From NCBI GenBank assembly GCA_964593585.1, contig CAZQIZ010000001.1, positions 64,528-128,527 on the forward strand: 64,000 nucleotides of DNA, read 5' to 3'. Positions within the stretch are counted from its first letter, which is position 1; every line of letters starts with the position of its first letter. The position numbers and the translations under genes are program-made. Source of the DNA: an uncultured Ignavibacteria bacterium (GTDB taxonomy: Bacteria > Zixibacteria > MSB-5A5 > WJJR01). Of the stretch, positions 3,484 through 30,167 are shown piece after piece. Below the pieces are notes generated by a model. The model made no database searches. It saw nothing but the letters and a program-made list of their open reading frames with translations, and was not told the origin of the DNA.

Positions 3484-3489
3484 GCCCGG

Positions 3490-4035: not shown

Positions 4036-4043
4036 GGCGGTCC

Positions 4044-4448
4044 TCAGTTCTTGGTCGTGTACGTGGTGAAGGTGAGCGTGCGCGCCAGCCCCGACGCGTC
4101 GGTCCAGTTGACGGTCGCGTCCACCTTGTAGACATGCGCCGGGATCGACGAGGTCACCGTCTTGTCGGTAACACGCGTCGTCACCGTGTATCTGCCGCCA
4201 TCGAAGGTGCTGGTCTGCACATAGGGGATGGTCGGAAACCCGACGGCGCCGATTTTCTGCTCGATCATTTCCTGCGCCGCGGCTACCACGCTGGTGATGT
4301 TCTCGCTGTGCACGCTGCCCCGCACCGAGATGGCCATCAGCGGCGCCAACCCCAGAATGCCGAGGGTCAATACGACCATGGCCGCGAGCACTTCGATGAG
4401 GGAGAGCCCCTTTTGATCTGATCCGATCTTGCGCAATCGCCCCAGCAT
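4044..4448 (-). CDS. Type IV pilin-like protein (PilV-like minor pilin). A longer alternative start at 4511 is less likely.
   Basis: Leader 'MLGRLRKIGSDQKG' then 'LSLIEVLAAMVVLTLGILGL' (Glu at +5). An ATG is present at 4448 on the minus strand. Confidence 0.65.
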   Translation of the reverse strand: MLGRLRKIGSDQKGLSLIEVLAAMVVLTLGILGLAPLMAISVRGSVHSENITSVVAAAQEMIEQKIGAVGFPTIPYVQTSTFDGGRYTVTTRVTDKTVTSSIPAHVYKVDATVNWTDASGLARTLTFTTYTTKN

Positions 4449-4687
4449 ATCATCCGCCTTCCTTCGCTTCAGTGTTCGTCTTGCCGCTGACATAAGCCAA
4501 TGCCGTGCCAAGAGTCCGGATTCCGTGACAAACCCATAATCCTCCGACTGACAACGCCTTACGCGCCGGGTCGTTGGGCCGCGCCGATGCCCGTGATGCC
4601 AAGCAGTGGCTGCACCGGGCGGAGGTATGGGATCGTGCCCATTGTCGGAAATGCGGATGGGGATGCGGTCGGACGGCGTTGGTGCTT

Positions 4688-10599: not shown

Positions 10600-11463
10600 C
10601 TAGACCAATTGCTTGAGCAGTCGCAGCACCATCCGGTTGAAGCCCTCGGGGCCGGGGGCGCCGGCGAGGCGGATGCCTTTGTGCTCGCGCAGGAAGGGGT
10701 GGTACTTGCCGTCGGGTCGTTTGACCGCCACGGCGATGTCGCAGACGTTCATCATCGGCCAATCGCTGGGGGCGTCGCCGAAGGCCAGTGTGCGCGGTTT
10801 GACCGGCTCGACCGCGTTGTACCACTTAATCAATTCGGCGACCGCCTTGCCTTTGTCGGCGTCCTCGCCGATCAGATGGTAGAAGCGCCCGCCCTCGATG
10901 ATTGCAAATCCGTTCTTGCTGAGATTCTTCAGGTGATTCTGCAGGGCCGCCTCCGACGGGGTCGGGCGGAAGATGAACGGCTCGGAATACTCCCGCTTCT
11001 TGGCCAGCGCCACCATCCCGTGCGGCACACCCGACATCGCGGTGATGGTATCGAGATTCCAGTCGCCGAATCCCTCGCAGTGGACCTTGGTCGCTTCGCG
11101 GTAGGTGACCAATTGCTTGCGGACCTCGGTGTAGGGGACGCCGAATTCACGCACCCAGAAACCGTCCTTCTCCTTGGCGCCGCGCGGCTTTTCGGGCACA
11201 CTCGCCTTGGGCCAGAAGATGGCCGACCCGTTCTCGCAGATAAAGGGCGTGTCCAGCCCCAGCAGTTTGCGCAGGTGCGTAATCTCGTAGCGGGTCTTCG
11301 ACGAAACCAAGACCAGCGGCACATTGAGCCGCTTGAGTTCGCGCAGCCCCGCCTGGGCGGCCTCGTAGGAGTGGCTGTGGAAATCCAGAAGCGTGCCGTC
11401 GAGGTCGGTGAACACGACCAGCCCCGGCTTGAGCGGACGGGATTTTTTCTTCGGCGGCGCCAT
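10600..11463 (-). CDS. HAD-IIB phosphatase, mannosyl-/glucosyl-3-phosphoglycerate phosphatase family (MpgP/YedP-like).
   Basis: Starts 'MAPPKKKSRPLKPGLVVFTDLDGTLLD'. Later 'LVSSKTRYE' and 'AFGDAPSDWPMM'. The 10600..12066 extension is rejected because it would run through the riboswitch on the opposite strand. Confidence 0.7.
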   Translation of the reverse strand: MAPPKKKSRPLKPGLVVFTDLDGTLLDFHSHSYEAAQAGLRELKRLNVPLVLVSSKTRYEITHLRKLLGLDTPFICENGSAIFWPKASVPEKPRGAKEKDGFWVREFGVPYTEVRKQLVTYREATKVHCEGFGDWNLDTITAMSGVPHGMVALAKKREYSEPFIFRPTPSEAALQNHLKNLSKNGFAIIEGGRFYHLIGEDADKGKAVAELIKWYNAVEPVKPRTLAFGDAPSDWPMMNVCDIAVAVKRPDGKYHPFLREHKGIRLAGAPGPEGFNRMVLRLLKQLV

Positions 11464-11659
11464 GACTGCAGTCCGTTGGTCGCTGGCGATCTTCAAGATG
11501 ACTCTCCGAATGTAAGTGAGTTGAATCGTCTTCGGCAACCGTAAAGCCGCGGTTGTGCTGATCATCCTTCTGCGCGCGTGGGTGCCTCGTGAATGCGGAT
11601 AGAAGATACGACAATTCGATACGTCTTGACAAGTCCCGCGCGAATTTTGCATCTTGGCC

Positions 11660-11835
11660 TCGGCGTTCGGGGATCGCCCAATGGCGATCGACCGGGAAGG
11701 CGGTGCAAATCCGCCACAGCCCCGCTGCTGTAAGCGGCTACAACGACGGCATCGAAGCCACTGGATTGCATCCGGGAAGGCGCCGTCGAAGGCGCGAAGC
11801 CGCAAGTCAGAAGACCGGGCCGAACGTGTTTGATC
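11660..11835 (+). promoter_or_regulatory. Cobalamin (AdoCbl) riboswitch in the 5' leader of the TonB-dependent receptor gene.
   Basis: Conserved core 'ACCGGGAAGGCGGTGCAAATCCGCCACAGCCCCGCTGCTGTAAGCGG' and a B12 box 'GAAGCCACTGG...GGGAAGGCG'. A candidate promoter (TTGACA at 11626) lies upstream. Riboswitch ends about 150 nt before the receptor ATG. Confidence 0.85.
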
Positions 11836-11990
11836 ACCGACGACGCCTTCGCGGGAGGGAGCGGGTGACAGGGACGGGTCCCACGACCCGGCCATGCCAT
11901 CATCACCCGGCCTGATTCCCGGCCGGGTTTTTGTTTCCGACACCGCCACGGCGCCGTCCAGCCCGCCACTCCGAGGGGAGGTGGAGGTCG

Positions 11991-14123
11991 ATGCCGAGTT
12001 TGCCCCGTTTTGTGTGCTGTGTCGCGGCACTTGCGCTGTTGTTGTCTCCTGCGTCCGCGTGGACACAATCCGACATCGTCATCTCCGGCATTGTAATCGA
12101 TGCGATCACGCTCGCGCCGATTGATCAGGCGGCGATTCGTGTCGATGCCACGGCGCTGGTGACTCATTCGCAGGGCGATGGCCGCTTTACGCTCCGCGCG
12201 GTGCCGTATGGCGCCTGGACGCTGATGATCGAGCGCGCCGGATACCATTCGCGTCGCATCGAACAGGTCCGGATTGATGAGGGACTGGCGCGCACCCTGC
12301 GCATCGAGCTGCAGCCCGACCCGGTGCAAGTCGAGGGACTAAAGTCCACCGCTCCTGTAACCGCATCAGGATCAGTCCGTCGGATTCAACTGCGCGAAGG
12401 GCGGCATGCGGGCAAGTCGCTGGCCGAGGTGCTGGCAACGGTGCCTGGCATCCGTGTCTACGGCAGCGCTGATGCGCCCGGCGGCACGCGCATTTCGCTG
12501 GGCGGCGAACCGGCCAGCCGTGTGACGGTCCTGCTCGATGGTCTGCCCCTGTCGGGCGGCGCCGATGGCGCGGTCGATCTGGAAGCGATCCCGAAGGCGG
12601 CTATCACCGCGGTCGAGATCCGTCCCGGAAGCCAGAGTCTGACCGCCGGCGATGCGGCCATGGGGGGCGCGATCAATTTGATCACCGCGCCGCCGCCCGC
12701 GTCGCGTCAATTGGCGGTTTCCTCGCAGGCCGGGCAGTGGGGCGCCCTCCAGCAGGAGGCGAAGGCCACCGTGCGATCCGGCTCACTGCATCTGTCCGCC
12801 GGCGGCGAATATGGCCGTCGCGACGACCGCTACCGCTACATCGACGCCACCGGCGCCTCCGCCACACGTCGCAACGCCGGGCGGGAAGAGGGGCGGATGT
12901 TCGCGCGAGTTACACATTCCGCGCGGCCCACGCTGGAATTGCTCGGCTATGGCTCGCGCATCGAACGCGGCGCGCCGGGAACCATCGAACGCCCGCTCAT
13001 CTCGGCGACGACGACCAATAGGAATGCCCGTGTCCAAACCAACCGTACCTGGGCGGTTGGCTCCCATGCCGCGCTGGCAGTCGCCGGTTGGTATGAGTTC
13101 ACCAGTGAATATTACAACGCCACTGCAGAACGTGTGCCATTCCATACATATATACGTGAGCATTACCTCGGGGCCCGTGTCGGCGGCGAGTTCGACTGGT
13201 TGCGGGGGGCTCTGACGCTGGAAGGGGAGAGCCGGAGGCGCGATCTGCGCGGCGATGATTACCAACGTCCGGCCCTCGCCTTCGGCGCACAATCGCGCGC
13301 GGAGTATGCGTTGCGCGCGCGCTGGCGACGCACATTCGGCGCGTGGTCCATCTCCGGCGGCGCGTCGGTCGATGCCGATGCCGACAACCGCCCCGGCTGG
13401 TCGCCGCGCGCCGATATCAGCTGGCGTCTGCTCGATGGGCTGCACCTGGGCGCGGGCTGGGGGCATTCCTTCCGCCGTCCGCTGCTATTGTCGGCGTTCT
13501 GGAAAAGCGACTACTACACCCAGGGCAACCCGGATCTGCGTCCCGAACGCGCGGTCGAGTGGGAACTGTCGGCCCGCGGGCGTTACCGCTTCCCGCATGC
13601 CGATGTACGCTACTTCGAACGCGATGTCACCGACATCATTGTCTGGGACCTGCGCGGCGCGCCGCCGCGTTATCAACCGGTCAACCTTGCCGGGGCGCGA
13701 GTGATCGGCCGCGAGGATCATGTTGCGGCCACGGCCTGGGACGGCCGAGTCACGCTGGACTACACCCACATCTTCACCGCCGGCACCGACGCCTCCGGTG
13801 AATTCAATTACGAGGGCCGGACACTGGTCTTCATGCCGCGTCACACGCATGACCTGATCGGCGATGCGCAATTGGGACGCTGGGGTGTCTACGCTGCGGC
13901 GCATTGGGTCGGACCGCGTTTCACGCTGCGCGCCAACACCAAGTCGCAGCCGGCCTATCGTCGTTTCGATGCTGCCATTCGCTGCGCCATCCGACGCGGG
14001 CAGCCGGATCTGACGATTGCCGTGCGCGGCGAGAACCTGACCAACGAATCCATCGAATTGTTGCAGGGATACCCATCGCCGGCCCGGACGCTGACGCTGG
14101 CCCTGACAGCGGGGTTTGATTAA
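11991..14123 (+). CDS. btuB: TonB-dependent outer-membrane receptor, BtuB-like cobalamin receptor, with an N-terminal carboxypeptidase-regulatory-like domain.
   Basis: Signal peptide 'MPSLPRFVCCVAALALLLSPASA'. CarbopepD_reg-like 'IVISGIVIDAITLAPIDQAAIRVDATA'. Plug and barrel motifs, with a C-terminal 'TLTLALTAGFD'. Downstream of the cobalamin riboswitch. RBS GGAGGTGGAGG. Confidence 0.85.
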   Translation: MPSLPRFVCCVAALALLLSPASAWTQSDIVISGIVIDAITLAPIDQAAIRVDATALVTHSQGDGRFTLRAVPYGAWTLMIERAGYHSRRIEQVRIDEGLARTLRIELQPDPVQVEGLKSTAPVTASGSVRRIQLREGRHAGKSLAEVLATVPGIRVYGSADAPGGTRISLGGEPASRVTVLLDGLPLSGGADGAVDLEAIPKAAITAVEIRPGSQSLTAGDAAMGGAINLITAPPPASRQLAVSSQAGQWGALQQEAKATVRSGSLHLSAGGEYGRRDDRYRYIDATGASATRRNAGREEGRMFARVTHSARPTLELLGYGSRIERGAPGTIERPLISATTTNRNARVQTNRTWAVGSHAALAVAGWYEFTSEYYNATAERVPFHTYIREHYLGARVGGEFDWLRGALTLEGESRRRDLRGDDYQRPALAFGAQSRAEYALRARWRRTFGAWSISGGASVDADADNRPGWSPRADISWRLLDGLHLGAGWGHSFRRPLLLSAFWKSDYYTQGNPDLRPERAVEWELSARGRYRFPHADVRYFERDVTDIIVWDLRGAPPRYQPVNLAGARVIGREDHVAATAWDGRVTLDYTHIFTAGTDASGEFNYEGRTLVFMPRHTHDLIGDAQLGRWGVYAAAHWVGPRFTLRANTKSQPAYRRFDAAIRCAIRRGQPDLTIAVRGENLTNESIELLQGYPSPARTLTLALTAGFD

Positions 14124-14135: not shown

Positions 14136-15362
14136 ATGCACACCGCCACAAGCCAGCTCCTGGCTTGGAGCCTCATCCTAGGACTGACTCTGTGCGGCTC
14201 CGATGCCCGGGCGGTCGACGATCTGGATCGACTGTATGTCATCAACGGTCTCGGCGAGACGCTCACGCTGATCGACCGCGCCGGCGATTCGCTGGTGGCC
14301 AACTGGATGCCGCTGGGCGGCTGCCCAAACCGCATCCGCGCCCACGAGGGCCTGCTTCTGGTCGTCAACTCCTGCACTGATGACCTCATGGTCATCAATG
14401 CGGCCAGTCGATCGTTGCTTCGCACCGTCGACTTTCCCGGCGGCGACAATCCCTGGGACGTGCTGGTCCTCGATGATTCTCTCTGTGCCATTTCGCTTCT
14501 GGTGGCCAACGAGGTGGCCATTCTGAACTATCAAGTCGGCGTCGAACGACGCCGGTTTGCGGTAGGAACCAGCCCGGAGGGTTTGCTCTATTACGCCGGA
14601 CGTCTCTGGATCGCCAACACCGGCCTCGACTTCGGCACGTTTGAGTACGGTCAGGGGACGGTGTCGATCGCCAATGCGTCGTTGACCGCCGTGCAAGTCT
14701 CAGTCAATGTTGGCACCAACCCACAGGTCCTGGCTGTCGGCGGCGATGGCGAGGTGCATGTTCTCTGCACCGGCAATTACGCCGACCGTGTCGGGCGCAT
14801 CTACACGCTCGATCGCGATTCCTGGCTGCCGACCGATTCGATCCTGATCAACGATTATCCCGGCGATTTGGCGATTGCCTCCGACGGGATCGGCTACATT
14901 GCCGGGGGGGGATTCGTCGACTCCGGCTTCGTCTACCGCTATGATAGCCGGACACATGCGATTCTGAATGGGCCGTCCAATCCCTGGAAAACCGCGCGTG
15001 GTGTGCTGAGTGTGACACCGCGTCTGGAGGGGGGCGTCTTCGCGCTCTGCTTCTCCGCCGACTCGGTCACCGAACTGGCCGCCAACGGCGCACCGGCGGA
15101 TGCCTGGGCGGGAGGCGATGGCCCCGGCTATGCCGCCTATGTGACCAACCGTGTCCCCGGCGACCTCAACGATGACGGCGTGCACAATGTCCAGGATGTG
15201 GTCGAGATCGTGAACACCGCCTTCCGCGGCGGGGCGCCCAGCGGACGGCCCAACGCCGCCGATGTGAACGGCGATTGCGCCTGCGACATCCTCGATGCCG
15301 TGGCATTGGTCAACCATGTCTTCCGCGGCGGCGCGACGCTCTATTGGGGGTGCCTGCAATGA
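14136..15362 (+). CDS. Surface lipoprotein, YVTN/YncE-type beta-propeller with two C-terminal dockerin-type repeats. Candidate BtuG-like B12-binding partner of BtuB.
   Basis: Lipoprotein signal 'LILGLTLCGS'. Repeated beta-propeller blades. C-terminal 'DLNDDGVHNVQDVVEIVN...DVNGDCACDILDAVALVN' (dockerin type I-like). Position is immediately after btuB, as in Bacteroides btuB-btuG. Confidence 0.5.
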   Translation: MHTATSQLLAWSLILGLTLCGSDARAVDDLDRLYVINGLGETLTLIDRAGDSLVANWMPLGGCPNRIRAHEGLLLVVNSCTDDLMVINAASRSLLRTVDFPGGDNPWDVLVLDDSLCAISLLVANEVAILNYQVGVERRRFAVGTSPEGLLYYAGRLWIANTGLDFGTFEYGQGTVSIANASLTAVQVSVNVGTNPQVLAVGGDGEVHVLCTGNYADRVGRIYTLDRDSWLPTDSILINDYPGDLAIASDGIGYIAGGGFVDSGFVYRYDSRTHAILNGPSNPWKTARGVLSVTPRLEGGVFALCFSADSVTELAANGAPADAWAGGDGPGYAAYVTNRVPGDLNDDGVHNVQDVVEIVNTAFRGGAPSGRPNAADVNGDCACDILDAVALVNHVFRGGATLYWGCLQ

Positions 15363-15739
15363 GACCGATCCTCGCCGCTCTGCTTTTGCTTTCCATCGGC
15401 GGCTGCGGTCAGACGACGACCAAGCAGCGCACGGCCCCCAACCAGCCGGGGGCGTTGGTCATCGCCTACCGTCCCGACAGCGCCGACACCTTTGTCGCGG
15501 TCCGTTCCGATTCCGTGGTCGCGTTGGACTGGCTGCGCGAGATTGCCCGTTCGCATGACATCGCGCTGGAACTGAATTCTTACCCCTATGGCACATTGAT
15601 TGAACAGGTCGGACCGCGTCGCAACGGCGACGGCGGCTATTGGCTCTACAGGGTCAACGGCCAGATGGTCCCGAAGTCGGCCGATGCCCACCCCGTCGCC
15701 TGGAGCGACACAGTGACGTTTTTCTTCGACGAGCGTTAA
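15359..15739 (+). CDS. Small lipoprotein, DUF4430-like (transcobalamin/intrinsic-factor beta-domain-like). Candidate BtuH-like B12-binding protein.
   Basis: Lipobox 'LLLSIGGCGQ'. 'GYWLYRVNGQMVP...DTVTFFF' resembles the DUF4430 W-x-Y-x-V-N-G signature. Translationally coupled to the previous gene (ATGA). Confidence 0.5.
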   Translation: MRPILAALLLLSIGGCGQTTTKQRTAPNQPGALVIAYRPDSADTFVAVRSDSVVALDWLREIARSHDIALELNSYPYGTLIEQVGPRRNGDGGYWLYRVNGQMVPKSADAHPVAWSDTVTFFFDER

Positions 15740-15762
15740 TCGTTGCGGCGTATATTCCCGCC

Positions 15763-16296
15763 GTGACCGTCGACGACAACCGTTTCTGGACCGTTCCAAA
15801 TCTGCTCTCGCTGTCGCGCATTGCGCTCATTCCGGTGTGGTGGTGGGTGATGCGCGCCGGGCTTGTTCCATTGGGGGCGGCGTTGATTGTGTATGCCATC
15901 CTCTCCGATGTGGCCGATGGCTGGATTGCGCGCCGCTGGAACCAGGCCAGCCGCTGGGGACGGATCCTCGATCCGATCGGCGACAAACTGGCGGCGGTGG
16001 TGGTGGGGCTGTTCTGCGTGCTCGACCGCGGCCTGCCGGCCTGGGCCTTCGCGCTGACTATTGCCCGCGACCTGTCGCTTCTGGTCGGCGGCTATGTCGT
16101 CCTGTGCCGCACCCATGTCGCGCCGGTCTCGGCCGACATCGGACGCTACGCCGCCCTGCTCTGGGGGATTGTCCTGCTGCTGTATGCCTTCGACTGGCAG
16201 CCCTATGGCCGTTACACCGTCTGGCCGGCGGTCGCGCTGTATCTGGTGGCAGGAGTCTACTACATGCGGCGGACGCTGTCGATCAAGCCGACTTAG
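15763..16296 (+). CDS. CDP-alcohol phosphatidyltransferase family membrane protein. Start uncertain (GTG at 15763; the ORF opens at 15640).
   Basis: Exact family motif 'DVADGWIARRWNQASRWGRILDPIGD' (D-x2-DG-x2-AR-x8-G-x3-D-x3-D). Confidence 0.7.
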   Translation: MTVDDNRFWTVPNLLSLSRIALIPVWWWVMRAGLVPLGAALIVYAILSDVADGWIARRWNQASRWGRILDPIGDKLAAVVVGLFCVLDRGLPAWAFALTIARDLSLLVGGYVVLCRTHVAPVSADIGRYAALLWGIVLLLYAFDWQPYGRYTVWPAVALYLVAGVYYMRRTLSIKPT

Positions 16297-19200
16297 CCCG
16301 TGCCCGGCGGCGGCTGCGCCAGTGGACGACATCGTCCAGCAGCGTGTAGACCACCGGCACCACAATTAAAGTCAGCATCGTCGAAGAGATCAATCCGCCG
16401 ATGACGGCGCGTCCCATCGGCGCGCGGAACTCCGCGCCCGGGCCGATGCCCAGCGCGATTGGCAGGATGCCCATGATGGTGGTCAGCGTTGTCATGATGA
16501 TCGGGCGCAGACGGATCGGACCGGCTTCGAGAATCGCCGCCTCCCGTGTTTCGCCGCGCGAGCGCGCCTGCTTGACAAAGTCGATCAGCAGGATGGCGTT
16601 CTTGGTGACCAGACCCATCAACAGCACCATACCGATCAACGACATAATCGACAACGCGCTGCCGAAGAGAAACAGCCCGACAAACGCGCCCACCAGCGAC
16701 ATCGGCAGCGAGAGCATGATGGTGAACGGGTCGGTGAAGCTCTCATACTGCGACGCCAGCACCAGATAGATGAAGATGACGGCGAGGACCAGCGCGGTGA
16801 AGATTTCGGCGAACGATTCTTCCTGAATTTCCGCCTCGCCGGTGGCGCGGATCGAATATCCGGGCGGCGTCGGCACCTGACGCGCCTTGGCCATCACCGC
16901 GGCGCGTACGTCGCCGGCGAAGGCGCCCGAGGCGATGTTGCCGGAGACCAGCACCTCGCGACGACGGTCGTACCGACGGATCTCCGCCGGCCCGCCGCGC
17001 GGCTGCAGGTGCGCCACTTCCTTTAGCGGCACCATGAAATTCGGATGCGCGGGGATGTCGCGCGTGCTGCCGATCATGAGGTTGGCCAGAGACCACGGGT
17101 CGCCGCGATCGGACGGGGCCAGGCGCAGACGGACGTTGTATTCCTCCGTGCCTTCCTTGAAGGTGGTGACATCGCTGCCGTCAACGAGGGTGCGCAGATC
17201 GGAGGCGATCGCCGCCATCGACAGACCCAGTTCGCTGGCGCGTTCGCGATCGACCACGATCTGTGTTTCCGGACGCGCCCCGGAGAGCGAATTGCGGATC
17301 TCCCTCGCGCCGGGTGTTGCTTTCGCCGAATCCTCCACCGCCGCCGCCAGCATCCTCAGCACCCGCAGGTCCTCGCCCTGCACAGAAATGCCGATCGGCT
17401 GCTGCTCCATCGAGCCGGCCTCCAGCGCCAAACCGAGGTAGAGACCGGGAAAATCGGCCAGGCGCTCGCGCATTTCGCTTTGCAGCACGAACACATGGCG
17501 GTCACGCCGGTCATGCGGGGTCAGGATCACCGTGACCATGCCTTCGTTGACCCCTTGCTGCTGCGCGCCAATGGTGGTGAAGATGCCCTCGACTTCGGGC
17601 GTCTCGCGCAGCCGCTCTTCCAGCCGCGCGGTCAGCTCGACCGTCTGTCGCAAAGTCGTCCCCGGCGCCGCCTCAAAGGCGATATAGATCTGGCCGCGAT
17701 CCGACATCGGCAGGAACTCGGTGCCAATAAAGGGCAGGAGGAAGAAGCTGCCGACAAACCCGATCCCAGCAATGGTCATCGTGGCCAGCCGATGGCGCAG
17801 CGCCCAGGCGAGGGTGCGGCGGTAGAGCCCCTTAACCCATTCGAAGGCGGCGTTGAAACGCGCCAGCAGGGCGTACAGGCCGCGACGCGACCGGACGGTT
17901 TGCTCCTCCTCGGAGCGGGTGACCAGGCGCGAAAACAGCATCGGCGTGAGCGTGAAGGCGACAAACAACGAGACCAACACCGACACCGCCACGGTCATCC
18001 CGAATTGGTAGAAGAAGCGGCCGACGATGCCGCCCATGAAGGCGACCGGCACAAAGACCGCCACGATCGTGAAGGTCGTCGCCATGACCGCCAGGCCGAT
18101 TTCGCCGGTGCCTTCGGCGGCGGCGGTGTGGCTGTTGCCCCCGCGATGAAAGTGCCGATGGATGTTTTCGATCACGACTATGGCATCATCGAGAAGGAGG
18201 CCGGTGGCGATCGACAGCCCCAAAAGCGACATGAAGTTGATGGTGAAGTTGAGCAGATCCATCATCATGAAGGTGGCAATGATGGACGTCGGTATGGCCA
18301 GCGCCGATATCAGCGTCGTACGCCAGTCGGCCAGGAAAATGAAGATAACCAGCACCGCCAGCAGGCCGCCGTAGAGGATGTTGACGATCACATCCTCGAC
18401 CGAGTCGCGGATGAAGATGGAGTTGTCGGTGGCGACGACGATCTCGATGTCCGGCGGCAGCTCGCGCCGCAACTCGACCAGGCGCGCCTGGATGCCATCG
18501 GCGACCTGCACCGTGTTGGCGCCCGACTGCCGGACCACGTTCAGCGAGACCGCCTCGGCGCCGTTGTAGCGCGCGTAGCTGCGCTGCTCGGCGATACCGT
18601 CGCTGACAGTCGCTATGTCGGACAAGCGCACCGGTTTCCCGTCGCGGTGCGCGACCACGATCGCGGCGAAGTCGCGCCAGTCGATCAGACGGCCCAGCGC
18701 GCGGACGGTGATTTCGCTTTCGCCTCGGTCCAGACGGCCGACCGGAATCTCGACATTGGCCTGGGCGATGGCGGCGGCAATCTCATGCACCGGGAGGCGA
18801 AAGGCCTCCAGCCGGGCGCGGTCCAACGCAATCTGTATCTCACGCTCCTCGCCGCCGGCCAACTGCACCGCCCCGACGCCGGGCACCCCCTCGAGGCGCT
18901 TCTTGATCACGTCCTTGCTGAAGGTGGTGATTTCCTTCAACGGACGGTCGCCGGAGACCACCAGCGACATGATCGGCATGGCATCGGGATCGAAGCGCTG
19001 GATGATCGGATCCTCGGCGTCGTCGGGCAATTCGGAGGTGATAGTCGAGATCTTCTCGCGCACCTCCAGCGCCTTGTCGGAGGGCTTCTCGCCGAGTTCG
19101 AACTCGGCAATGATCATCGAGAGGCCGTCCTGCGATGTCGACGTGATGTGCTTGAGCCCGGAGATCGTGTTGATCTCATCCTCGATCAGCTTGGTGACCT

Positions 19201-19384
19201 CCGACTCGATCGTCTCCGGATCGGCGCCCGGGTAGGCGGTCATCACCACGACGTAGGGAAAGTCGACATCGGGAAAGAGATCAACCGGGATGCGGTTGTA
19301 GGAGAAGGCGCCCAGCACGACCAGCGCGGTGACCATCATCACCGTGAAGACCGGCCGTTTGATCGCGGTGTCGGAGAGTTTCAT
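16283..19384 (-). CDS. Efflux RND transporter permease subunit (AcrB/CzcA superfamily).
   Basis: 1033 aa with 12 TM helices and two large periplasmic loops. Conserved 'LVQVADGIQ' and 'ALAIPTSIIATFMMM' blocks. Confidence 0.9.
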   Translation of the reverse strand: MKLSDTAIKRPVFTVMMVTALVVLGAFSYNRIPVDLFPDVDFPYVVVMTAYPGADPETIESEVTKLIEDEINTISGLKHITSTSQDGLSMIIAEFELGEKPSDKALEVREKISTITSELPDDAEDPIIQRFDPDAMPIMSLVVSGDRPLKEITTFSKDVIKKRLEGVPGVGAVQLAGGEEREIQIALDRARLEAFRLPVHEIAAAIAQANVEIPVGRLDRGESEITVRALGRLIDWRDFAAIVVAHRDGKPVRLSDIATVSDGIAEQRSYARYNGAEAVSLNVVRQSGANTVQVADGIQARLVELRRELPPDIEIVVATDNSIFIRDSVEDVIVNILYGGLLAVLVIFIFLADWRTTLISALAIPTSIIATFMMMDLLNFTINFMSLLGLSIATGLLLDDAIVVIENIHRHFHRGGNSHTAAAEGTGEIGLAVMATTFTIVAVFVPVAFMGGIVGRFFYQFGMTVAVSVLVSLFVAFTLTPMLFSRLVTRSEEEQTVRSRRGLYALLARFNAAFEWVKGLYRRTLAWALRHRLATMTIAGIGFVGSFFLLPFIGTEFLPMSDRGQIYIAFEAAPGTTLRQTVELTARLEERLRETPEVEGIFTTIGAQQQGVNEGMVTVILTPHDRRDRHVFVLQSEMRERLADFPGLYLGLALEAGSMEQQPIGISVQGEDLRVLRMLAAAVEDSAKATPGAREIRNSLSGARPETQIVVDRERASELGLSMAAIASDLRTLVDGSDVTTFKEGTEEYNVRLRLAPSDRGDPWSLANLMIGSTRDIPAHPNFMVPLKEVAHLQPRGGPAEIRRYDRRREVLVSGNIASGAFAGDVRAAVMAKARQVPTPPGYSIRATGEAEIQEESFAEIFTALVLAVIFIYLVLASQYESFTDPFTIMLSLPMSLVGAFVGLFLFGSALSIMSLIGMVLLMGLVTKNAILLIDFVKQARSRGETREAAILEAGPIRLRPIIMTTLTTIMGILPIALGIGPGAEFRAPMGRAVIGGLISSTMLTLIVVPVVYTLLDDVVHWRSRRRARAKSA

Positions 19385-20421
19385 CGCACGGCCGTCTGCG
19401 GCACCGGATTGACCGGGCTTTGATCCTGCAGGGAATGTTGACCGAGCACGACCACCGTCTCACCCGGCGTCAGCCCGGTGACGATCTGCACCAGCGTGCC
19501 CGATTCGGCGCCGACAGTGACCGGTATGTAATGCGCCAGGGAATCGCGCACGACAAAGGCGCCCAGCCCGGATTCGCGGTAGACCAGGGCCTCGCGCGGC
19601 GCCGCCACCGCGTCGGCGATGCGCTCCAACTCCAGGCCCGCGGTGATGAACATGCCGGGCAGGAGGCGGTGCTCCAGGTTCGGCGCCAGCGCTTCGACCC
19701 GCAACATGCGCGTCTCCGGGTCGGCCGACGAGGCGATCTGGTCGACCCAGCCGGCCGCGTGCGCGGCGCTGTCCAGCTGCGACAAAATCTGCACCGGCAT
19801 GCCTTTCCTCAGCGCGCGGGCCTCGTAGACAGTGACGTCAATTAATACACGCACCGTGTCGATGGCGGCAATCTCAACCAAGGCCTCGCCCGGCGTTGTC
19901 TGACGCCCGGTCTTGGCGGTCACATCGGTGACGATCCCGGTCAGAGGCGCCAGGACATTGGCGGCATCACGCGCCGCCTCGAAATCGGCCTTGGCAACCT
20001 CGAAGGCGGTCCGACGCGCATCGCGCTCCAACTCACTCACCGCGCCGTCGGCGAACAGACGATCGTACTTCTCAAATGTCTTCTTGGCATCCTCGTACAC
20101 CGCCTGCGCCTGACGCACCGACGTCGCCGGCCCGGACTGGTCGAACGTCACCACCACCTGCCTGGCGTGTACCGCGTCGCCCTTGCGCACATGCACCCGC
20201 GCGATCGTCTCGGCCAGTCGCGCGCTGACCGTTGCCTGACGAATCCCCTCCACCGAGCCGGAATAGGATAGCGTGCGGGTGATGTCCTGACGGACCACCG
20301 GGGCGGTGACCACCGGAATACGGGCCACGTTGTTCTGTGTCTGCTGGCCCGATTGGCATCCGGCCAAAGTCAGGGTCAGGGCCGCCAGCATCGCCGTGGA
20401 AGTCACCTGTTGAACATGCAT
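19381..20421 (-). CDS. Efflux RND periplasmic adaptor (membrane fusion protein).
   Basis: Lipoprotein-like N-terminus 'LTLAGCQSG'. HlyD/biotinyl-lipoyl-like fold. Stop/start overlap with the RND gene. Confidence 0.85.
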   Translation of the reverse strand: MHVQQVTSTAMLAALTLTLAGCQSGQQTQNNVARIPVVTAPVVRQDITRTLSYSGSVEGIRQATVSARLAETIARVHVRKGDAVHARQVVVTFDQSGPATSVRQAQAVYEDAKKTFEKYDRLFADGAVSELERDARRTAFEVAKADFEAARDAANVLAPLTGIVTDVTAKTGRQTTPGEALVEIAAIDTVRVLIDVTVYEARALRKGMPVQILSQLDSAAHAAGWVDQIASSADPETRMLRVEALAPNLEHRLLPGMFITAGLELERIADAVAAPREALVYRESGLGAFVVRDSLAHYIPVTVGAESGTLVQIVTGLTPGETVVVLGQHSLQDQSPVNPVPQTAVR

Positions 20422-20448
20422 CGTCAGACTCCTTGATCCTGTCCCGAG

Positions 20449-21804
20449 TTACTCACTCGCGCGGGCAAACACCGGCTCGCCCATGGCCAGCCGCCACTGC
20501 ACCCGCGCCACCCGGCGGTCATGACGGGCGCGGGCGGCGAAGACGCGCGCGGTGGCCAGCGCCACCTGCGCATCGAGCACTTCCAACTGCGTTCCGACCC
20601 CGGACTCATAGCGCAAATTGGCGATCTGCAGCCCGCGTTCGGCCTCGGCCACCGATTCCCCCTGCGCCTGCAGACGGGCGCCGGCCTCATCGAAGCGGCT
20701 GCGCGCATCGGCAATCTGCAGGGCCACCGCGCGGTCCAGTTCGCTTTGACGCAACTCGGCTTCGCGTTGATCGACCCGCAACACCTGGATGTTGCCCCGG
20801 CGACGGAAGCCATCGAACAAATTGTACGAGGCCGACAACCCTACCTGCCATGAACGGAAGTAATCGTCGCGCGCCGGCCAACTGTCGTCGGTCAATGCCT
20901 GATAGTCGAATGTTCCCTTTAGATGCAGCGACGGCCAGCGTTCGGCTTTGAGCACGCCTACCGCCTTGTCGATGGCTGAAATCCGGTGTGTCATCGCCGC
21001 CAGATCGGAGCGCTGACGGCGCGCCACCGTCACCAGGTCGCTGCCGTCATACTCCCAGGCGGCTGAGTCGGGTTCGGCGTCGCGAATGCCCAGCTCCAGA
21101 TCGGGCGGGAGCCCGACCAGATTGGCCAGACGCAGCAGCGCCAGACGCAAATCGTTTTCCGCCTGGAGGACCGGTGGTCGGGCGTTGGCCACACGCACCC
21201 GTGCGCTGAGGTTGTCGTATTCCGAGACCAACCCGTCGGCAAACTTGCGCGCTACCACCGCGGCGTGTTCTTCGGTCAAAGCCAATGTCTGACGCGACAC
21301 ATCGGCCAGTTGCGCCGCCAGAAGGGCGTCGAAGTAGGCGGTGGCGACTTGGGCTTCCAGTTCGAGGCGCGCCTGTTGCGCCAGATGTTCGTTCATGCGC
21401 CGATACTGCTGCGCCGCCTGCCAGGCCGACAAGACACCGCCTCCTTCAAACAACGTCTGGTCAAAGGTCAGCCCGCCGACCACCGTGTACTTTGTGCCGA
21501 TGGTGAATTCCTGTCCGGCGAAGAAGATCTTGGGCAGTTCGAGCGTACGGTTGTAGTTGGCGTGCAGGTCGATGGTGGGGAAGAGGCCGGCGCGGGCGCT
21601 GACAATCTGCCCTTCGGCCCGATCCAATTGTGCCAGCACAGTCTGGTACTGCTCGTTGTGACGCACCGCCGAGTCGATGGCCGCCGCCAGCGGCAGTTCA
21701 TACGGCTGCGCATGCCCGCGGGCGGCCGATAAGGCGACCAGCGCAACGAAAAAAACGGCGGAGACCCGCCGACCAGATGCGCGCGGACGGACCGATTCAA
21801 ACAT
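20449..21804 (-). CDS. TolC-family outer-membrane efflux protein (partner of the RND pump).
   Basis: Signal peptide 'MFESVRPRASGRRVSAVFFVALVALSAARGHAQ'. Two OEP repeats with coiled-coil segments. Start placed at the ATG at 21804 rather than the 22110 extension. Confidence 0.8.
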   Translation of the reverse strand: MFESVRPRASGRRVSAVFFVALVALSAARGHAQPYELPLAAAIDSAVRHNEQYQTVLAQLDRAEGQIVSARAGLFPTIDLHANYNRTLELPKIFFAGQEFTIGTKYTVVGGLTFDQTLFEGGGVLSAWQAAQQYRRMNEHLAQQARLELEAQVATAYFDALLAAQLADVSRQTLALTEEHAAVVARKFADGLVSEYDNLSARVRVANARPPVLQAENDLRLALLRLANLVGLPPDLELGIRDAEPDSAAWEYDGSDLVTVARRQRSDLAAMTHRISAIDKAVGVLKAERWPSLHLKGTFDYQALTDDSWPARDDYFRSWQVGLSASYNLFDGFRRRGNIQVLRVDQREAELRQSELDRAVALQIADARSRFDEAGARLQAQGESVAEAERGLQIANLRYESGVGTQLEVLDAQVALATARVFAARARHDRRVARVQWRLAMGEPVFARASE

Positions 21805-21925
21805 CGGACTATAGTACTCCACATCCGGTCCGGTTGGGTGTCGATTTCCCACCCGCGCGCGGTGTTTTTGACAGGCGGGAAGGCCCGCCGCAAACCGTGA
21901 CAAATCCCCCGCCGCAGTCATACAT

Positions 21926-22780
21926 TTGGGCATGGCCGGCGCCATCGACATCCACATCCACGTCTCGCCCTTTGAGCAGATGCATCCGCCGATTCTGGCA
22001 ACGATGAAGCAGGGGAGAGATTTCGCGCTAATCGAACGGGTCACGCGCGATCCCGGCGCGCTGTTGGCGCTGATGGACGAGGCGGGCATCGAGCGGTGCG
22101 GGATCATCAACTATGTCGCGCCGGAGTTGATGGGATTCACCGACGAAGTCAATCGCTTCGCCGCGGCGTATGTGAAGGGCCATCGCGACCGGCTCTTCGC
22201 CCATGGTTCACTCGATCCGCACACAACGCGCGATCCCCGCGGCGAACTGGCCCGGCTGATGGATGAGGGCATCACCGCGATCAAGATTCACCCGCCGCAT
22301 CAGGCGGTATACCCGAACGAATATCTGCGCGGCAACCGCATCTTGGCCGACCTGTATGGCTTCTGCGCCGAACGGGGCGTGCCGGTTGTCTTTCACACCG
22401 GCACCACGATCTTCAAAGCGGCGCGCATCAAGTATGGCGATCCGATCCATCTCGATGACGTCGCCTGCGATTTTCCCGAGTTGACGATCGTGCTGGCCCA
22501 CGCCGGACGTCCCCTCTGGATGGAAACCGCGCGTTTCCTGGTCAAACGCCATCCGAATGTGTACATGGACCTCTCCGGCATTCCGCCCGTCCGGATTCCG
22601 CAATGGTTTCCCGATCTCGACAAACTGGCCACCAAGACCCTCTGGGGCAGCGACTGGCCCGGCCCCGGAGTGCCCGATCTGGGCGCCAACTTGCTGGCAT
22701 TCCGAGCTCAGAATTGGGCGGAAACCAGCCACGAGGCGATCGGCCGAAGCAATGCGCCGAAAGTTTTTCGTCTGGCGTAA
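21926..22780 (+). CDS. Amidohydrolase-2 family metal-dependent TIM-barrel hydrolase.
   Basis: 'AIDIHIHVSP' HxH metal-binding start and a conserved 'HAGRP' motif. Confidence 0.7.
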   Translation: MGMAGAIDIHIHVSPFEQMHPPILATMKQGRDFALIERVTRDPGALLALMDEAGIERCGIINYVAPELMGFTDEVNRFAAAYVKGHRDRLFAHGSLDPHTTRDPRGELARLMDEGITAIKIHPPHQAVYPNEYLRGNRILADLYGFCAERGVPVVFHTGTTIFKAARIKYGDPIHLDDVACDFPELTIVLAHAGRPLWMETARFLVKRHPNVYMDLSGIPPVRIPQWFPDLDKLATKTLWGSDWPGPGVPDLGANLLAFRAQNWAETSHEAIGRSNAPKVFRLA

Positions 22781-22809
22781 CCCACTTGCCGAAAAGGCAA
22801 TAGGTCAAA

Positions 22810-22827
22810 TTGGACCTATTGGTCCCA
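22810..22827. promoter_or_regulatory. Palindromic operator-like site TTGGACC-TATT-GGTCCCA upstream of the TetR gene (candidate TetR operator).
   Basis: Inverted arms in the intergenic region 22781..22882. Near-identical architecture to the site at 9581..9598. Confidence 0.45.
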
Positions 22828-22882
22828 TTCTTTTGCTCCTCGCCGCAAACAAATCGCGCCCTCGGTCGTATAATTCATACGT

Positions 22883-23500
22883 ATGAGTGAATCGCGCGAC
22901 ACGCGTTCTGCCCTGATTGCCTCCGCTCGCAAGGTCTTCGCGCGGCGCGGCTACCGCGGCGCCTCCATTAAAGCCATCACCGATGACGCCCACGCCAACC
23001 TCGGCGCGGTCACCTACCACTTTGGCACCAAGGAACGTCTCTACCATGAAGTCATCCGACAACTGGTCGGACCGCTGCATCAACATGTACGCGCCGCCAC
23101 GGAAGCCGACGGCACCGCGCTCTCGCGCATCGAGGCCGGCGTCCGCGCCTACTTCCAGTACATGCACACGCACCACGAACTGCCGGCGATGATGCTGCAT
23201 GAGATGTCGCTGACCGGACCGCTCCCCGCGCCGATTCAGGAATCGATCGGCGCGATGATGAAGCACATGTCCGGGCTGGTCGTGCGCGGCCAGGCCGACG
23301 GGGAGATAGTCGAAGGCGATCCGGTGCTGCTGACCGTCAGTTCCATATCACAGCCTTTGTTCTTTGTCATCATGCGCCGGGGCCTGAAGGAAATCGCCGG
23401 GGTCAACATGCACGACCGCGCGACCCAGGAACGGGTGCTGGTTCACCTCTTGGCCTTTGTGCGGCGCGGACTGATGCGCCCGGGGAGTTCGACCCAATGA
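22883..23500 (+). CDS. TetR/AcrR-family transcriptional regulator.
   Basis: HTH 'SARKVFARRGYRGASIKAITDDAHANLGAVTYHFGTKERLY'. Stop overlaps the TolC start. Confidence 0.85.
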   Translation: MSESRDTRSALIASARKVFARRGYRGASIKAITDDAHANLGAVTYHFGTKERLYHEVIRQLVGPLHQHVRAATEADGTALSRIEAGVRAYFQYMHTHHELPAMMLHEMSLTGPLPAPIQESIGAMMKHMSGLVVRGQADGEIVEGDPVLLTVSSISQPLFFVIMRRGLKEIAGVNMHDRATQERVLVHLLAFVRRGLMRPGSSTQ

Positions 23501-27701: not shown

Positions 27702-27708
27702 GCGCGCC

Positions 27709-29942: not shown

Positions 29943-29962
29943 TGACGACATCAGGTGTTGTC

Positions 29963-29982
29963 GCCCCCGCGAAAGCGGGGGC
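29963..29982 (+). terminator. GC-rich hairpin after the ABC-2 operon.
   Basis: gcccccgc-gaaa-gcgggggc, a perfect 8-bp stem. Confidence 0.35.
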
Positions 29983-30105
29983 CCAAACCATGGCCGCCGC
30001 GTCTGGATTCCCGCGTGCGCGGGAATAACTAAGGGATGGAATCCTCGTCCCCGCGTCCCTCGGCTTCGCTCGGCATAACACTCCCGAGGACAGGGACTCC
30101 CCGCG

Positions 30106-30142
30106 AATAAAATCCCCCGCCGCGTGGCCGCGGCGGGGGATT
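30106..30142 (-). terminator. Rho-independent terminator of the giant gene 30168..35525.
   Basis: Perfect 14-bp stem aatcccccgccgcg-tggc-cgcggcgggggatt, followed on the minus strand by TTATT. Confidence 0.6.
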
Positions 30143-30167
30143 CTTACAACGTGGTGCGATCGTGGGG

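What the first reader, a model, noticed from the sequence alone, without database searches (positions are those of the whole stretch)
14136..15362. Dockerin-type repeat pair fused to the BtuG-like lipoprotein
The C-terminal 70 aa ('DLNDDGVHNVQDVVEIVN...DVNGDCACDILDAVALVN') form two Ca-binding dockerin type-I-like segments. Bacteroides BtuG associates with BtuB directly. A dockerin here implies anchoring to a cohesin-bearing scaffold or S-layer-like partner, which would be an unusual way of tethering a nutrient-capture protein. The M14 carboxypeptidase at 48914..51184 carries the same kind of tail.
Basis: seen in the sequence. Interest (0 to 1): 0.55.

Follow-up and report, generated by a model that had tools for sequence, protein, structure and literature searches.

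The report
Dockerin-tailed B12-capture propeller with cohesin-like partner
A vitamin-B12 uptake operon of an uncultured Zixibacteria-type bacterium encodes a BtuG-like B12-capture propeller that has no lipid anchor but ends in a real dockerin, and the same window holds a previously unannotated cohesin-shaped protein that is the likely docking partner.

Summary
The dockerin is real. ORF 14136..15362(+) matches Pfam Dockerin_1 above its curated cut-off, with both Ca-loops intact. Its N-terminal part models as a 7-bladed propeller whose best PDB matches are Bacteroides BtuG1/2/3. It sits in a cobalamin-riboswitch operon: TonB-dependent transporter, propeller, DUF4430 (BtuH-like) lipoprotein. It is not a lipoprotein, because the Cys is not conserved and the signal peptide is SPase-I type. 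Homologues in equivalent riboswitch/transporter operons carry a T9SS C-terminal domain or a lipobox instead, so the tail is probably the interchangeable retention module. The M14 peptidase tail fails the Pfam model but matches an HMM built from the BtuG-like tails (E 1.4e-12). No Pfam cohesin occurs in the window. However, ORF 51891..52448(-), which has no family hit, models as a 9-strand sandwich, and about 45 of its top 50 PDB matches are cohesins. In six to eight Zixibacteria loci this gene lies directly upstream of the dockerin-tailed M14 gene, and a paralogue in some genomes is fused to a T9SS anchor domain. Binding, B12 capture and the route across the outer membrane are untested. This is a new variant of known systems.

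The parts
11651..11838 (+). Cobalamin riboswitch aptamer heading the operon
   Evidence: Rfam RF00174, 102.9 bits against a gathering score of 31.5, full-length match.
11931..14123 (+). TonB-dependent transporter, BtuB-like, with an N-terminal CarboxypepD_reg domain, plug and barrel. The true start is probably a little downstream: the orthologue is called at 711 aa.
   Evidence: Pfam CarboxypepD_reg, Plug and TonB_dep_Rec_b-barrel. The best NCBIfam match is TonB-B12, below its cut-off. Orthologue length.
14136..14213 (+). SPase-I type signal peptide of the propeller protein (aa 1-26, predicted cleavage ARA|V); not a lipobox
   Evidence: The alignment shows the Cys is not conserved; it is Arg in the 93%-identical P0001. 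An AAGGAG ribosome-binding site lies upstream.
14226..15146 (+). Seven-bladed BtuG-like beta-propeller (aa 31-337)
   Evidence: AF2 pLDDT 93.2, 28 strands. Foldseek top hits are BtuG1/2/3 (8bmz, 8okv, 8bai, 3dsm, 8ptd) at E 1e-18..1e-15 and TMt 0.73-0.80. TIGR02276 YVTN repeat.
15156..15359 (+). C-terminal dockerin: two EF-hand loop-helix repeats, followed by a conserved YWGC end with a probable Cys-Cys staple
   Evidence: Pfam PF00404 at 27.2 and 30.3 bits against a cut-off of 22.9. PDB dockerin alignments. Conserved Ca ligands and Cys.
15359..15739 (+). DUF4430 (BtuH-like) lipoprotein, translationally coupled by an ATGA overlap; lipobox SIGGC
   Evidence: Pfam DUF4430 at 30.1 bits against a cut-off of 23.8. 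Sequence. Orthologues of 126 aa.
48914..51220 (-). Secreted M14 carboxypeptidase with an InhA-like MAM domain; the second protein carrying the dockerin-like tail
   Evidence: Pfam Peptidase_M14 at 213 bits and InhA-like_MAM at 80 bits.
48941..49135 (-). Cys-rich dockerin-like tail of the M14 peptidase (about aa 696-760)
   Evidence: An HMM of the BtuG-like tails hits it at E 1.4e-12. There is no Pfam Dockerin_1 hit. The tail is present in all six complete M14 orthologues.
51891..52448 (-). Cohesin-fold secreted protein: 185 aa, SPase-I signal peptide, one ~150-aa 9-strand sandwich. Candidate dockerin partner.
   Evidence: No Pfam, NCBIfam or PDB sequence hit. 54 homologues of about 180 aa. AF2 pLDDT 84.9. 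About 45 of the top 50 Foldseek PDB hits are cohesins, at E 6e-6..3e-4 and TMt up to 0.74. Conserved directly upstream of the dockerin-tailed M14 gene.
52492..54531 (-). TMEM260-like GT-C glycosyltransferase with TPR repeats, conserved immediately upstream of the cohesin-fold gene. Context only; its role is unknown.
   Evidence: Pfam TMEM260-like at 92.5 bits. Synteny in eight loci.

Best explanation
The locus is a cobalamin-riboswitch-controlled uptake operon of a Zixibacteria-type diderm. It encodes a TonB-dependent transporter, a BtuG-like seven-bladed propeller that would capture corrinoids outside the cell, and a BtuH-like DUF4430 lipoprotein.

Bacteroides BtuG is held at the surface by an N-terminal lipid. 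This propeller has only a cleavable signal peptide, and I propose it is retained through its C-terminal, Ca-dependent dockerin. The dockerin would bind a cohesin-fold domain of a family that standard models do not detect. One member is encoded in the window at 51891..52448(-), next to the other dockerin-tailed protein, the M14 peptidase. In some Zixibacteria a paralogue is fused to a type IX secretion C-terminal domain, which would fix it to the cell surface.

Shown: the dockerin, the propeller fold, the operon, the interchange of anchor type among homologues, the cohesin fold and its synteny.

Inferred: that dockerin and cohesin-fold protein bind each other, that the propeller binds B12, and that the complex sits at the cell surface.
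For: - Dockerin: Pfam hit above the curated cut-off, Ca ligands conserved.
- BtuG-like fold: the best PDB matches are BtuG1/2/3.
- B12 operon: a cobalamin riboswitch and a transporter adjoin the propeller gene in the window and in 6 of 6 other loci scanned with Rfam; L018/L019 share the transporter-propeller operon but were not scanned.
- Anchor swapping in the same propeller family and operon type: dockerin (window, L004, L018); T9SS CTD (P0055 at 28.8 bits and P0059 at 41 bits, both above the cut-off; P0064 and P0066 weaker); lipobox plus Big_7 (P0057).
- Cohesin fold of the 185-aa ORF.
- Conserved order TMEM260-like, cohesin-fold, M14 with dockerin-like tail, M1 peptidase in L005, L006, L007, L009, L010 and L011, with partial copies in L012 and L013.
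- The CTD-fused paralogue family is homologous to the free form: hhalign probability 99.1%, E 1.5e-18.
- Co-occurrence: a BtuG-like dockerin protein, the free cohesin-fold protein and the CTD form lie on one 60-kb contig (L010 / P0033) and on one 227-kb contig (Kow0074_14820, 14960, 15060).
- Concerted change: repeat 1 of the two unrelated cargo proteins is 43-61% identical within three of the four genomes compared (39% in GCA_040752595) and 17-39% between genomes of different clades, with differences at helix positions 10, 11, 14, 18 and 22.
Against: - The cohesin assignment rests on a predicted fold only. Pfam PF00963, NCBIfam and PDB sequence or profile searches are all negative, and Foldseek E-values are modest (about 1e-5).
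- The window's cohesin-fold protein has no lipobox, CTD or transmembrane segment, so it cannot anchor anything by itself.
- No CTD-fused form lies in the 64 kb, and the rest of the genome could not be searched.
- A Sec-exported protein without a lipobox or CTD has no known route across the outer membrane.
- Synteny links the cohesin-fold gene to M14, not to the B12 operon, which lies 37 kb away here and about 14 kb away in GCA_040752595.1.
- The concerted-change comparison uses only four genomes.
Confidence: 0.55

Rival explanations
1. The dockerin needs no cohesin. It either docks the propeller directly onto its own TonB-dependent transporter, replacing the lipid tether, or it is only a Ca-dependent, disulfide-stapled stabilising module. 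The cohesin-fold protein would then serve the M14 peptidase alone, or do something else.
For: In Bacteroides, BtuG forms a stable lid complex directly with BtuB (PMC10404256). The cohesin-fold gene is syntenic with M14, not with the B12 operon. Dockerin-like modules are extremely common: the tail profile finds 53,781 cluster representatives. From general knowledge (Peer et al. 2009, listed in the references of PMC8542988), many sit in genomes with no recognised cohesin.
Against: The helix residues of the BtuG-like and M14 dockerins change together between clades, which points to a shared ligand rather than two private ones. Homologues replace the tail with generic surface-anchoring devices (T9SS CTD, lipid), not with transporter-specific modules.
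Confidence: 0.17
2. The system is periplasmic. The propeller, having only a Sec signal peptide, stays in the periplasm and hands corrinoid on from the transporter, in a BtuF-like role. The unanchored cohesin-fold protein is a periplasmic partner or chaperone for dockerin-tailed proteins.
For: Neither protein has a lipobox, CTD or other recognised outer-membrane export signal. No btuF-like gene lies in the operon. Conserved cysteines fit an oxidising compartment, which includes the periplasm.
Against: Homologous propellers in the same operon type carry T9SS CTDs, that is, they are exported to the surface. The structural relatives BtuG1-3 are surface lids on BtuB. An M14/MAM peptidase next to an M1 peptidase looks like extracellular protein scavenging.
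Confidence: 0.13
3. One reading: a cellulosome-style multi-cohesin scaffoldin or an S-layer protein elsewhere in the genome collects the propeller, the peptidase and other dockerin proteins.
For: A scaffoldin with tandem cohesins and a T9SS CTD has been proposed for another FCB phylum, Cloacimonadota (PMC8542988). Only 64 kb of this genome could be examined.
Against: All 54 plus 32 relatives of the cohesin-fold domain found are single-domain proteins of about 180 or 290 aa. There is no Pfam cohesin in the window, and the two giant surface proteins in it carry HYR/PKD repeats, not cohesins.
Confidence: 0.1

Closest known systems
Bacteroides BtuB-BtuG (and BtuH) vitamin B12 capture system (Wexler et al. 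2018, PMC6143338; Abellon-Ruiz et al. 2023, PMC10404256; Putnam et al. 2022, PMC8941943)
   Same: The operon is riboswitch-controlled and pairs a TonB-dependent transporter with a seven-bladed propeller and a DUF4430 protein. The propeller model superposes best on BtuG1/2/3.
   Different: Identity is only 13-15%. There is no lipobox or lipoprotein export signal, and a C-terminal dockerin is added. The organism is Zixibacteria-type, whereas BtuG was reported as exclusive to Bacteroidetes in a survey of gut genomes. B12 binding is untested.
Type I cohesin-dockerin pairs of cellulosomes, and non-cellulosomal cohesins and dockerins (for example Archaeoglobus fulgidus cohesin 2XDH; Peer et al. 2009)
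   Same: The tail is a duplicated EF-hand loop-helix dockerin that passes the Pfam cut-off. The candidate partner has the 9-strand cohesin sandwich, and 2xdh is its second-best PDB match.
   Different: The cargo is a nutrient-binding propeller and a peptidase, not glycoside hydrolases. The host is a diderm. The cohesin-fold family is invisible to PF00963, monovalent and unanchored. The dockerin carries conserved cysteines.
Cellulosome-like system proposed for Ca. Stygibacter (Cloacimonadota): dockerin enzymes plus a cohesin scaffoldin with a T9SS C-terminal domain (Williams et al. 2021, PMC8542988)
   Same: It lies in the FCB superphylum. Signal-peptide proteins, peptidases among them, carry C-terminal dockerins, and a cohesin-bearing protein is fixed to the surface through a T9SS CTD. 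The ~290-aa cohesin-fold plus CTD paralogues are comparable.
   Different: Here there is one cohesin-fold domain per protein rather than a 3,755-aa tandem scaffoldin. The domains are not recognisable by InterPro or Pfam. The dockerin is on a B12-uptake component.
Type IX secretion cargo anchoring by a C-terminal domain (Por_Secre_tail / FlgD_ig type)
   Same: It occupies the same position and apparently has the same role, as the C-terminal retention module of an otherwise identical propeller. The window also encodes two T9SS cargo proteins.
   Different: The dockerin is a helical Ca-binding module with no similarity to the Ig-like CTD. The window's propeller protein has no CTD.

Membership tests
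Dockerin type I (PF00404) | Match to the family HMM at or above the curated cut-off | tested here: met
   The BtuG-like protein scores 27.2 bits whole and 30.3 bits for the tail alone, against a cut-off of 22.9.
Dockerin type I (PF00404) | Two ~22-residue repeats, each a 12-residue EF-hand-like Ca loop (D/N at positions 1, 3, 5, 9, 12) followed by a helix | tested here: met
   The loops are DLNDDGVHNVQD and DVNGDCACDILD. The ligand columns are invariant or nearly so. AF2 helices lie at 352-364 and 385-397.
Dockerin type I (PF00404) | Ca-dependent binding to a cohesin | not testable with these tools
The evidence is indirect only.
Dockerin type I (PF00404), M14 peptidase tail | Match to the family HMM | tested here: not met
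   There is no Dockerin_1 hit at E<=1 for the whole protein or E<=10 for the tail. The tail is related to the BtuG-like dockerin only through a custom HMM, at E 1.4e-12.
BtuG (Bacteroides surface B12-binding lipoprotein) | Seven-bladed beta-propeller superposable on BtuG | tested here: met
   Foldseek rank 1 and ranks 3-17 are BtuG1/2/3 or the BACUNI_02894 homologue (rank 2 is the archaeal YVTN propeller 1l0q), at TMt 0.73-0.80 for the standalone BtuG chains (0.43 against the longer BtuG1 chain 8blw_B) and E down to 2.6e-18. The model has 28 strands.
BtuG (Bacteroides surface B12-binding lipoprotein) | Detectable sequence homology to BtuG | tested here: inconclusive
   Identity in the structural alignments is 13-15%. 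phmmer against PDB gives E 0.15 for 8ptf and 8ptd. A weak DUF5074 hit appears only in a distant homologue, P0057.
BtuG (Bacteroides surface B12-binding lipoprotein) | Encoded next to a btuB-type TonB-dependent transporter under a cobalamin riboswitch | tested here: met
   for the window. Six further loci checked with Rfam show the same; L018/L019 share the transporter-propeller operon but were not scanned.
BtuG (Bacteroides surface B12-binding lipoprotein) | N-terminal lipobox Cys followed by a lipoprotein export signal | tested here: not met
   The Cys is not conserved, and an SPase-I site is present. The feature is as defined in PMC6143338.
BtuG (Bacteroides surface B12-binding lipoprotein) | High-affinity corrinoid binding in the central cavity | not testable with these tools
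   Binding-site residues were not mapped, because identity is too low for a reliable transfer.
Cohesin (PF00963), ORF 51891..52448(-) | Match to the family HMM or to the sequences of solved cohesins | tested here: not met
   Pfam, NCBIfam, phmmer and a profile search against PDB gave no cohesin hit.
Cohesin (PF00963), ORF 51891..52448(-) | Nine-stranded beta-sandwich (jelly-roll) cohesin fold | tested here: met
   AF2 pLDDT 84.9 with 9 strands. About 45 of the top 50 Foldseek PDB hits are cohesins of types I and II and non-cellulosomal ones. No second fold-search method was available.
Cohesin (PF00963), ORF 51891..52448(-) | Co-occurs with dockerin-bearing proteins in the same genome | tested here: met
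   It lies adjacent to the dockerin-tailed M14 gene in 6 complete and 2 partial loci, and on the same contigs as the BtuG-like dockerin protein.
T9SS cargo (C-terminal sorting domain) | Por_Secre_tail / FlgD_ig type CTD at the C-terminus | tested here: not met
   The window's propeller protein has none. A CTD is present in the homologues P0055 and P0059 and in the cohesin-fold paralogues.

The most novel reading that the evidence does not exclude
The cohesin-fold and dockerin pair may be a general sorting and display system of Zixibacteria. Dockerin-tailed cargo with no export signal of its own (the B12-capture propeller, the M14 peptidase and others) would bind a small cohesin-fold carrier in the periplasm. 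It would then be carried through the type IX secretion pore as a folded complex by the CTD-fused paralogue and held on the cell surface. That would be piggy-back secretion, with the free 180-aa form acting as adaptor or chaperone.
Probability: 0.12. Interest if true: 0.8.

Novelty: new variant of a known kind. Interest (0 to 1): 0.6.

Why it matters
BtuG-type B12 capture has been described as a Bacteroidetes speciality that depends on lipid-anchored surface proteins. This locus suggests the same propeller-plus-transporter design is used more widely in the FCB superphylum. It also suggests that the means of holding the propeller at the surface (lipid, T9SS domain or dockerin) is interchangeable.

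The work also uncovers a cohesin-shaped protein family that current domain models miss. If that holds, 'orphan' dockerins in many non-cellulosomal genomes may have partners that have simply not been recognised. It gives concrete pairs of small proteins that can be tested in vitro. If the pair binds, it raises the question of how a diderm places dockerin cargo outside its outer membrane.

Tried and rejected
- Sequence and profile searches of the cohesin-fold families against PDB found no cohesin. A5 matched only FlgD/Por CTD entries.
- The tail profile searched against 1.84 billion representatives was too general to define a cargo set. It returned 53,781 hits, and the top ones were poly-dockerin proteins.
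- I suspected that the N-domains of three tandem dockerin proteins in L013 were cohesin-like. hhalign gives 4% probability, so the idea was dropped.
- An exact look-up of the window's own cohesin-fold protein found no contig on record, so the rest of the source genome could not be searched for CTD-fused cohesin-fold paralogues or further dockerins.
The distribution of the propeller across species representatives was therefore not measured.
- Peer et al. 2009 is not held in the library.
- Rejected: the lipoprotein reading of the propeller. Also rejected: the two giant surface proteins of the window as scaffoldins, since they carry HYR/PKD repeats plus a T9SS CTD and no cohesin.
Full report
**Observation**

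Pfam Dockerin_1 (PF00404) matches aa 341-395 at 27.2 bits, against a curated cut-off of 22.9. The isolated 73-aa tail scores 30.3 bits. phmmer against PDB sequences aligns aa 337-395 with solved clostridial type I dockerins, the best being 6kg9 at E 2.8e-5.

Both 12-residue loops, DLNDDGVHNVQD and DVNGDCACDILD, keep Asp or Asn at positions 1, 3, 5, 9 and 12. In alignments of orthologues down to about 31% identity these ligand columns are invariant or nearly so. An AlphaFold model built on 61 sequences has mean pLDDT 93.2. It shows the helix, short helix, helix pattern of a dockerin at 352-364, 372-375 and 385-397. The feature is therefore real and under selection.

A Cys in the second loop and a C-terminal YWGC are conserved in nearly all orthologues. 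This suggests a disulfide staple, which is an inference.

**The second tail**

The M14 carboxypeptidase at 48914..51220(-) carries Peptidase_M14 and an InhA-like MAM domain. It gives no Pfam dockerin hit, even for the tail alone at E<=10. An HMM built from the BtuG-like tails nevertheless hits its C-terminus at E 1.4e-12, and nothing else in the six-frame translation of the window. It is the same kind of module in a more divergent, Cys-rich version.

**What the protein is**

Residues 31-337 model as 28 strands, that is, seven four-stranded blades. In a Foldseek search of PDB, rank 1 and ranks 3-17 are B. thetaiotaomicron BtuG1, BtuG2 and BtuG3 and their B. uniformis homologue (8bmz, 8okv, 8bai, 3dsm, 8ptd, 8bmx_D). 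E-values run from 2.6e-18 to about 3e-15 and TM-scores from 0.73 to 0.80 (0.43 against the longer BtuG1 chain 8blw_B), at 13-15% identity. An archaeal YVTN propeller (1l0q) ranks second.

The gene is the second of a tight operon:
- A full-length cobalamin riboswitch at 11651..11838 (102.9 bits).
- A TonB-dependent transporter at 11931..14123 with CarboxypepD_reg, plug and barrel. Its best NCBIfam match is TonB-B12, below that model's cut-off.
- The propeller gene, preceded by an AAGGAG site.
- A DUF4430 protein whose ATG overlaps the propeller's stop codon (ATGA) and which has a good lipobox, SIGGC.

DUF4430 is the B12-binding domain of Bacteroides BtuH (PMC8941943, listed). The 'BtuG-like' label is thus supported by fold and by context, although sequence-level membership is inconclusive.

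**Not a lipoprotein**

The only N-terminal Cys (residue 20, in L-T-L-C) is replaced by Arg in the 93%-identical orthologue P0001. It is absent from the other orthologues, which all have plain signal peptides. In the window protein the hydrophobic core is followed by ARA|V. The defining lipobox and export signal of BtuG (PMC6143338) are therefore not met.

**The tail is an interchangeable anchor**

A search of 5.8 billion proteins found 71 relatives. Those with a source name are mostly Zixibacteria MAGs. Orthologues of about 408 aa keep the dockerin. More distant relatives end instead in a type IX secretion C-terminal domain. P0055 scores 28.8 bits and P0059 41 bits on Por_Secre_tail, both above the cut-off. 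P0064 and P0066 match more weakly. One relative, P0057, has a lipobox (LAFGC) and an Ig-like domain and no tail.

Every locus retrieved pairs the propeller gene with a TonB-dependent transporter, whatever the anchor. Every locus scanned with Rfam also has a cobalamin riboswitch at the head of the operon:
- Dockerin type: L004, and L018/L019 (the latter two not scanned for the riboswitch).
- CTD type: L001/L002, L015, L016.
- Lipobox type: L014.

Since the lipid and the CTD are surface-retention devices, the simplest reading is that the dockerin does the same job. The window itself encodes two giant HYR-repeat proteins with T9SS CTDs. The organism therefore uses both kinds of C-terminal module.

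**Is there a cohesin?**

I scanned about 44 candidate genes covering the window with Pfam. None matches Cohesin (PF00963), and Dockerin_1 appears only in the propeller protein.

One small ORF, 51891..52448(-), drew attention by its sequence pattern. It encodes 185 aa starting from MRPMRH. It has no hit in Pfam, NCBIfam or PDB sequences. It has 54 homologues of about 180 aa, and the named ones are again mostly Zixibacteria. An AlphaFold model built on 52 of them has pLDDT 84.9 and shows nine strands after a signal peptide.

Foldseek against PDB returns cohesins for about 45 of the top 50 matches. These include type II (5m0y, 2b59), type I (2ccl, 1ohz, 1aoh at TMt 0.74, 1anu at 0.72) and the non-cellulosomal Archaeoglobus cohesin 2xdh. 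E-values run from 6e-6 to 3e-4. A second fold-comparison method was not available, and profile searches against PDB sequences stay negative. The assignment is therefore 'cohesin fold', not 'Pfam cohesin family'.

**Genomic link between the cohesin-fold gene and a dockerin gene**

In two long Zixibacteria contigs the order on one strand is: TMEM260-like glycosyltransferase, cohesin-fold gene, M14/MAM peptidase, M1 peptidase. A scan of species-representative genomes found seven more loci.

Taken together, the four-gene order is complete in L005, L006, L007, L009, L010 and L011. It is cut by contig ends in L012 and L013. All six complete M14 orthologues carry the dockerin-like tail, at E 1e-8 to 1e-14. 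In the window the same order holds, except that a moaC gene on the other strand is inserted between the cohesin-fold gene and M14.

The BtuG-like operon lies 37 kb away in the window. In GCA_040752595.1 it is only about 14 kb away. The difference is a block of efflux, ABC and HYR-protein genes present only in the window.

**An anchored paralogue**

L010 also encodes a 289-aa protein whose N-terminal half matches the cohesin-fold HMM (E 1.2e-12). Its C-terminal part is a T9SS CTD: FlgD_ig at 58 bits and Por_Secre_tail at 34.6 bits. It has 32 relatives with the same architecture. The two families are homologous, with hhalign probability 99.1% and E 1.5e-18.

In one 227-kb contig three components lie within about 25 genes: the dockerin-tailed propeller (Kow0074_14820), the free cohesin-fold protein (14960) and the CTD form (15060). 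No CTD form lies in the 64-kb window, and the rest of the source genome could not be searched.

**Concerted change of the dockerins**

I compared repeat 1 of the propeller dockerin with repeat 1 of the M14 tail, in register, across four genomes.
- In the window: HNVQDVVEIVNTAFRG against DNVLDVIETVNIAFRG, 61% identity.
- In the Kow0074 clade: both read like IDA(I/V)D(V/L)N.LI..(L/V)F(F/Y), 43-48% identity.
- In GCA_040752595: 39%, an intermediate case no higher than its best cross-clade value.
- Across clades: 17-39% identity.

The changes fall at helix positions 10, 11, 14, 18 and 22. From general knowledge of type I complexes, these are the positions that contact cohesin. Two unrelated cargo proteins changing together is what one expects if they share a ligand. 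With four genomes this is suggestive only.

**Mechanism proposed**

When cobalamin is scarce, the riboswitch allows expression of the transporter, the propeller and the DUF4430 lipoprotein. The propeller would capture corrinoids and pass them to the transporter, as BtuG does for BtuB (PMC10404256). It would be kept at the cell envelope by Ca-dependent binding of its dockerin to a cohesin-fold protein. I put this at about 0.55.

Weak points:
- The cohesin-fold protein in the window has no anchor.
- The export route across the outer membrane for a Sec-only protein is unknown.
- No binding has been tested.

Rivals are direct docking to the transporter or a purely structural tail (0.17), a periplasmic system (0.13), and a classical multi-cohesin scaffoldin elsewhere in the genome (0.10).

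**Comparison with what is known**

Non-cellulosomal dockerins and cohesins are known in all domains of life (Peer et al. 2009, cited in PMC8542988). A cohesin scaffoldin with a T9SS CTD, together with dockerin-tailed enzymes including peptidases, has been proposed for Cloacimonadota, another FCB phylum (PMC8542988). The principle is therefore not new.

What I did not find described:
- A dockerin on a B12-uptake component. No paper in the library holds dockerin, TonB-dependent and cobalamin together, or Zixibacteria and dockerin together.
- BtuG-like propellers outside Bacteroidetes with swapped anchors. BtuG was reported as exclusive to Bacteroidetes among gut genomes.
- This cohesin-fold family, which domain models miss.

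I class the finding as a new variant of a known kind, with interest 0.6.

Noticed in passing
window 52492..54531 (-); L005-L012; L017 1207..3390: A TMEM260-like GT-C glycosyltransferase with TPR repeats lies immediately upstream of the cohesin-fold gene in every locus where that side is present. A PMT_2+TPR gene lies two genes from a distant CTD-form cohesin-fold gene in L017. This could mean that the cohesin-fold proteins are O-glycosylated; that idea is untested.
   Followed up: partly
window 30168..35525 (-) and 36072..40688 (-): Two very large secreted proteins of 1785 and 1538 aa. They consist of HYR_4C/HYR, PKD and SprB-like repeats and end in a T9SS C-terminal domain (FlgD_ig / Por_Secre_tail). 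They show that the organism has T9SS cargo.
   Followed up: no
L013 3583..6179 (-): Three tandem paralogues of about 290 aa in a Zixibacteria MAG. Each has a signal peptide, an unknown Cys-containing N-domain and a Pfam-positive Dockerin_1 tail (39 bits). The N-domain is not cohesin-like by hhalign.
   Followed up: partly
window 16283..41000 compared with L004/L005: Relative to GCA_040752595.1, the window carries a block of about 25 kb between the B12 operon and the IF-2B/succinate dehydrogenase genes. The block holds RND efflux genes, outer-membrane efflux proteins, a TetR regulator, an ABC-2 permease and the two HYR giants. This is why the B12 operon and the cohesin-fold/M14 cluster are 37 kb apart here rather than about 14 kb.
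   Followed up: partly
window 10600..12066 (-): The listed 488-aa ORF is over-extended. Its 5' part runs antisense across the riboswitch and into the transporter gene. The real gene is probably the C-terminal HAD-type hydrolase of about 287 aa, as called in the close relative L018.
   Followed up: partly
window 2320..6472 (-): A cluster of pilin-like genes (PilX_N/DUF7305, and two with N_methyl prepilin motifs), followed by a 594-aa protein with no family hit. It may be a type IV pilus or type II secretion pseudopilin set. That would bear on how non-CTD proteins leave the periplasm.
   Followed up: no
window 57953..61897 (+): Two cobalamin-independent methionine synthase (MetE-type) genes, followed by a homocysteine S-methyltransferase-MTHFR fusion. 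They lie in the same neighbourhood as the B12 uptake operon, and the same genes neighbour the cluster in L005 and L006.
   Followed up: no
window 15640..16296 (+); L004, L018, L019: A CDP-alcohol phosphatidyltransferase gene follows the DUF4430 gene in all four dockerin-type loci examined. Whether it belongs to the B12 operon is unclear.
   Followed up: no
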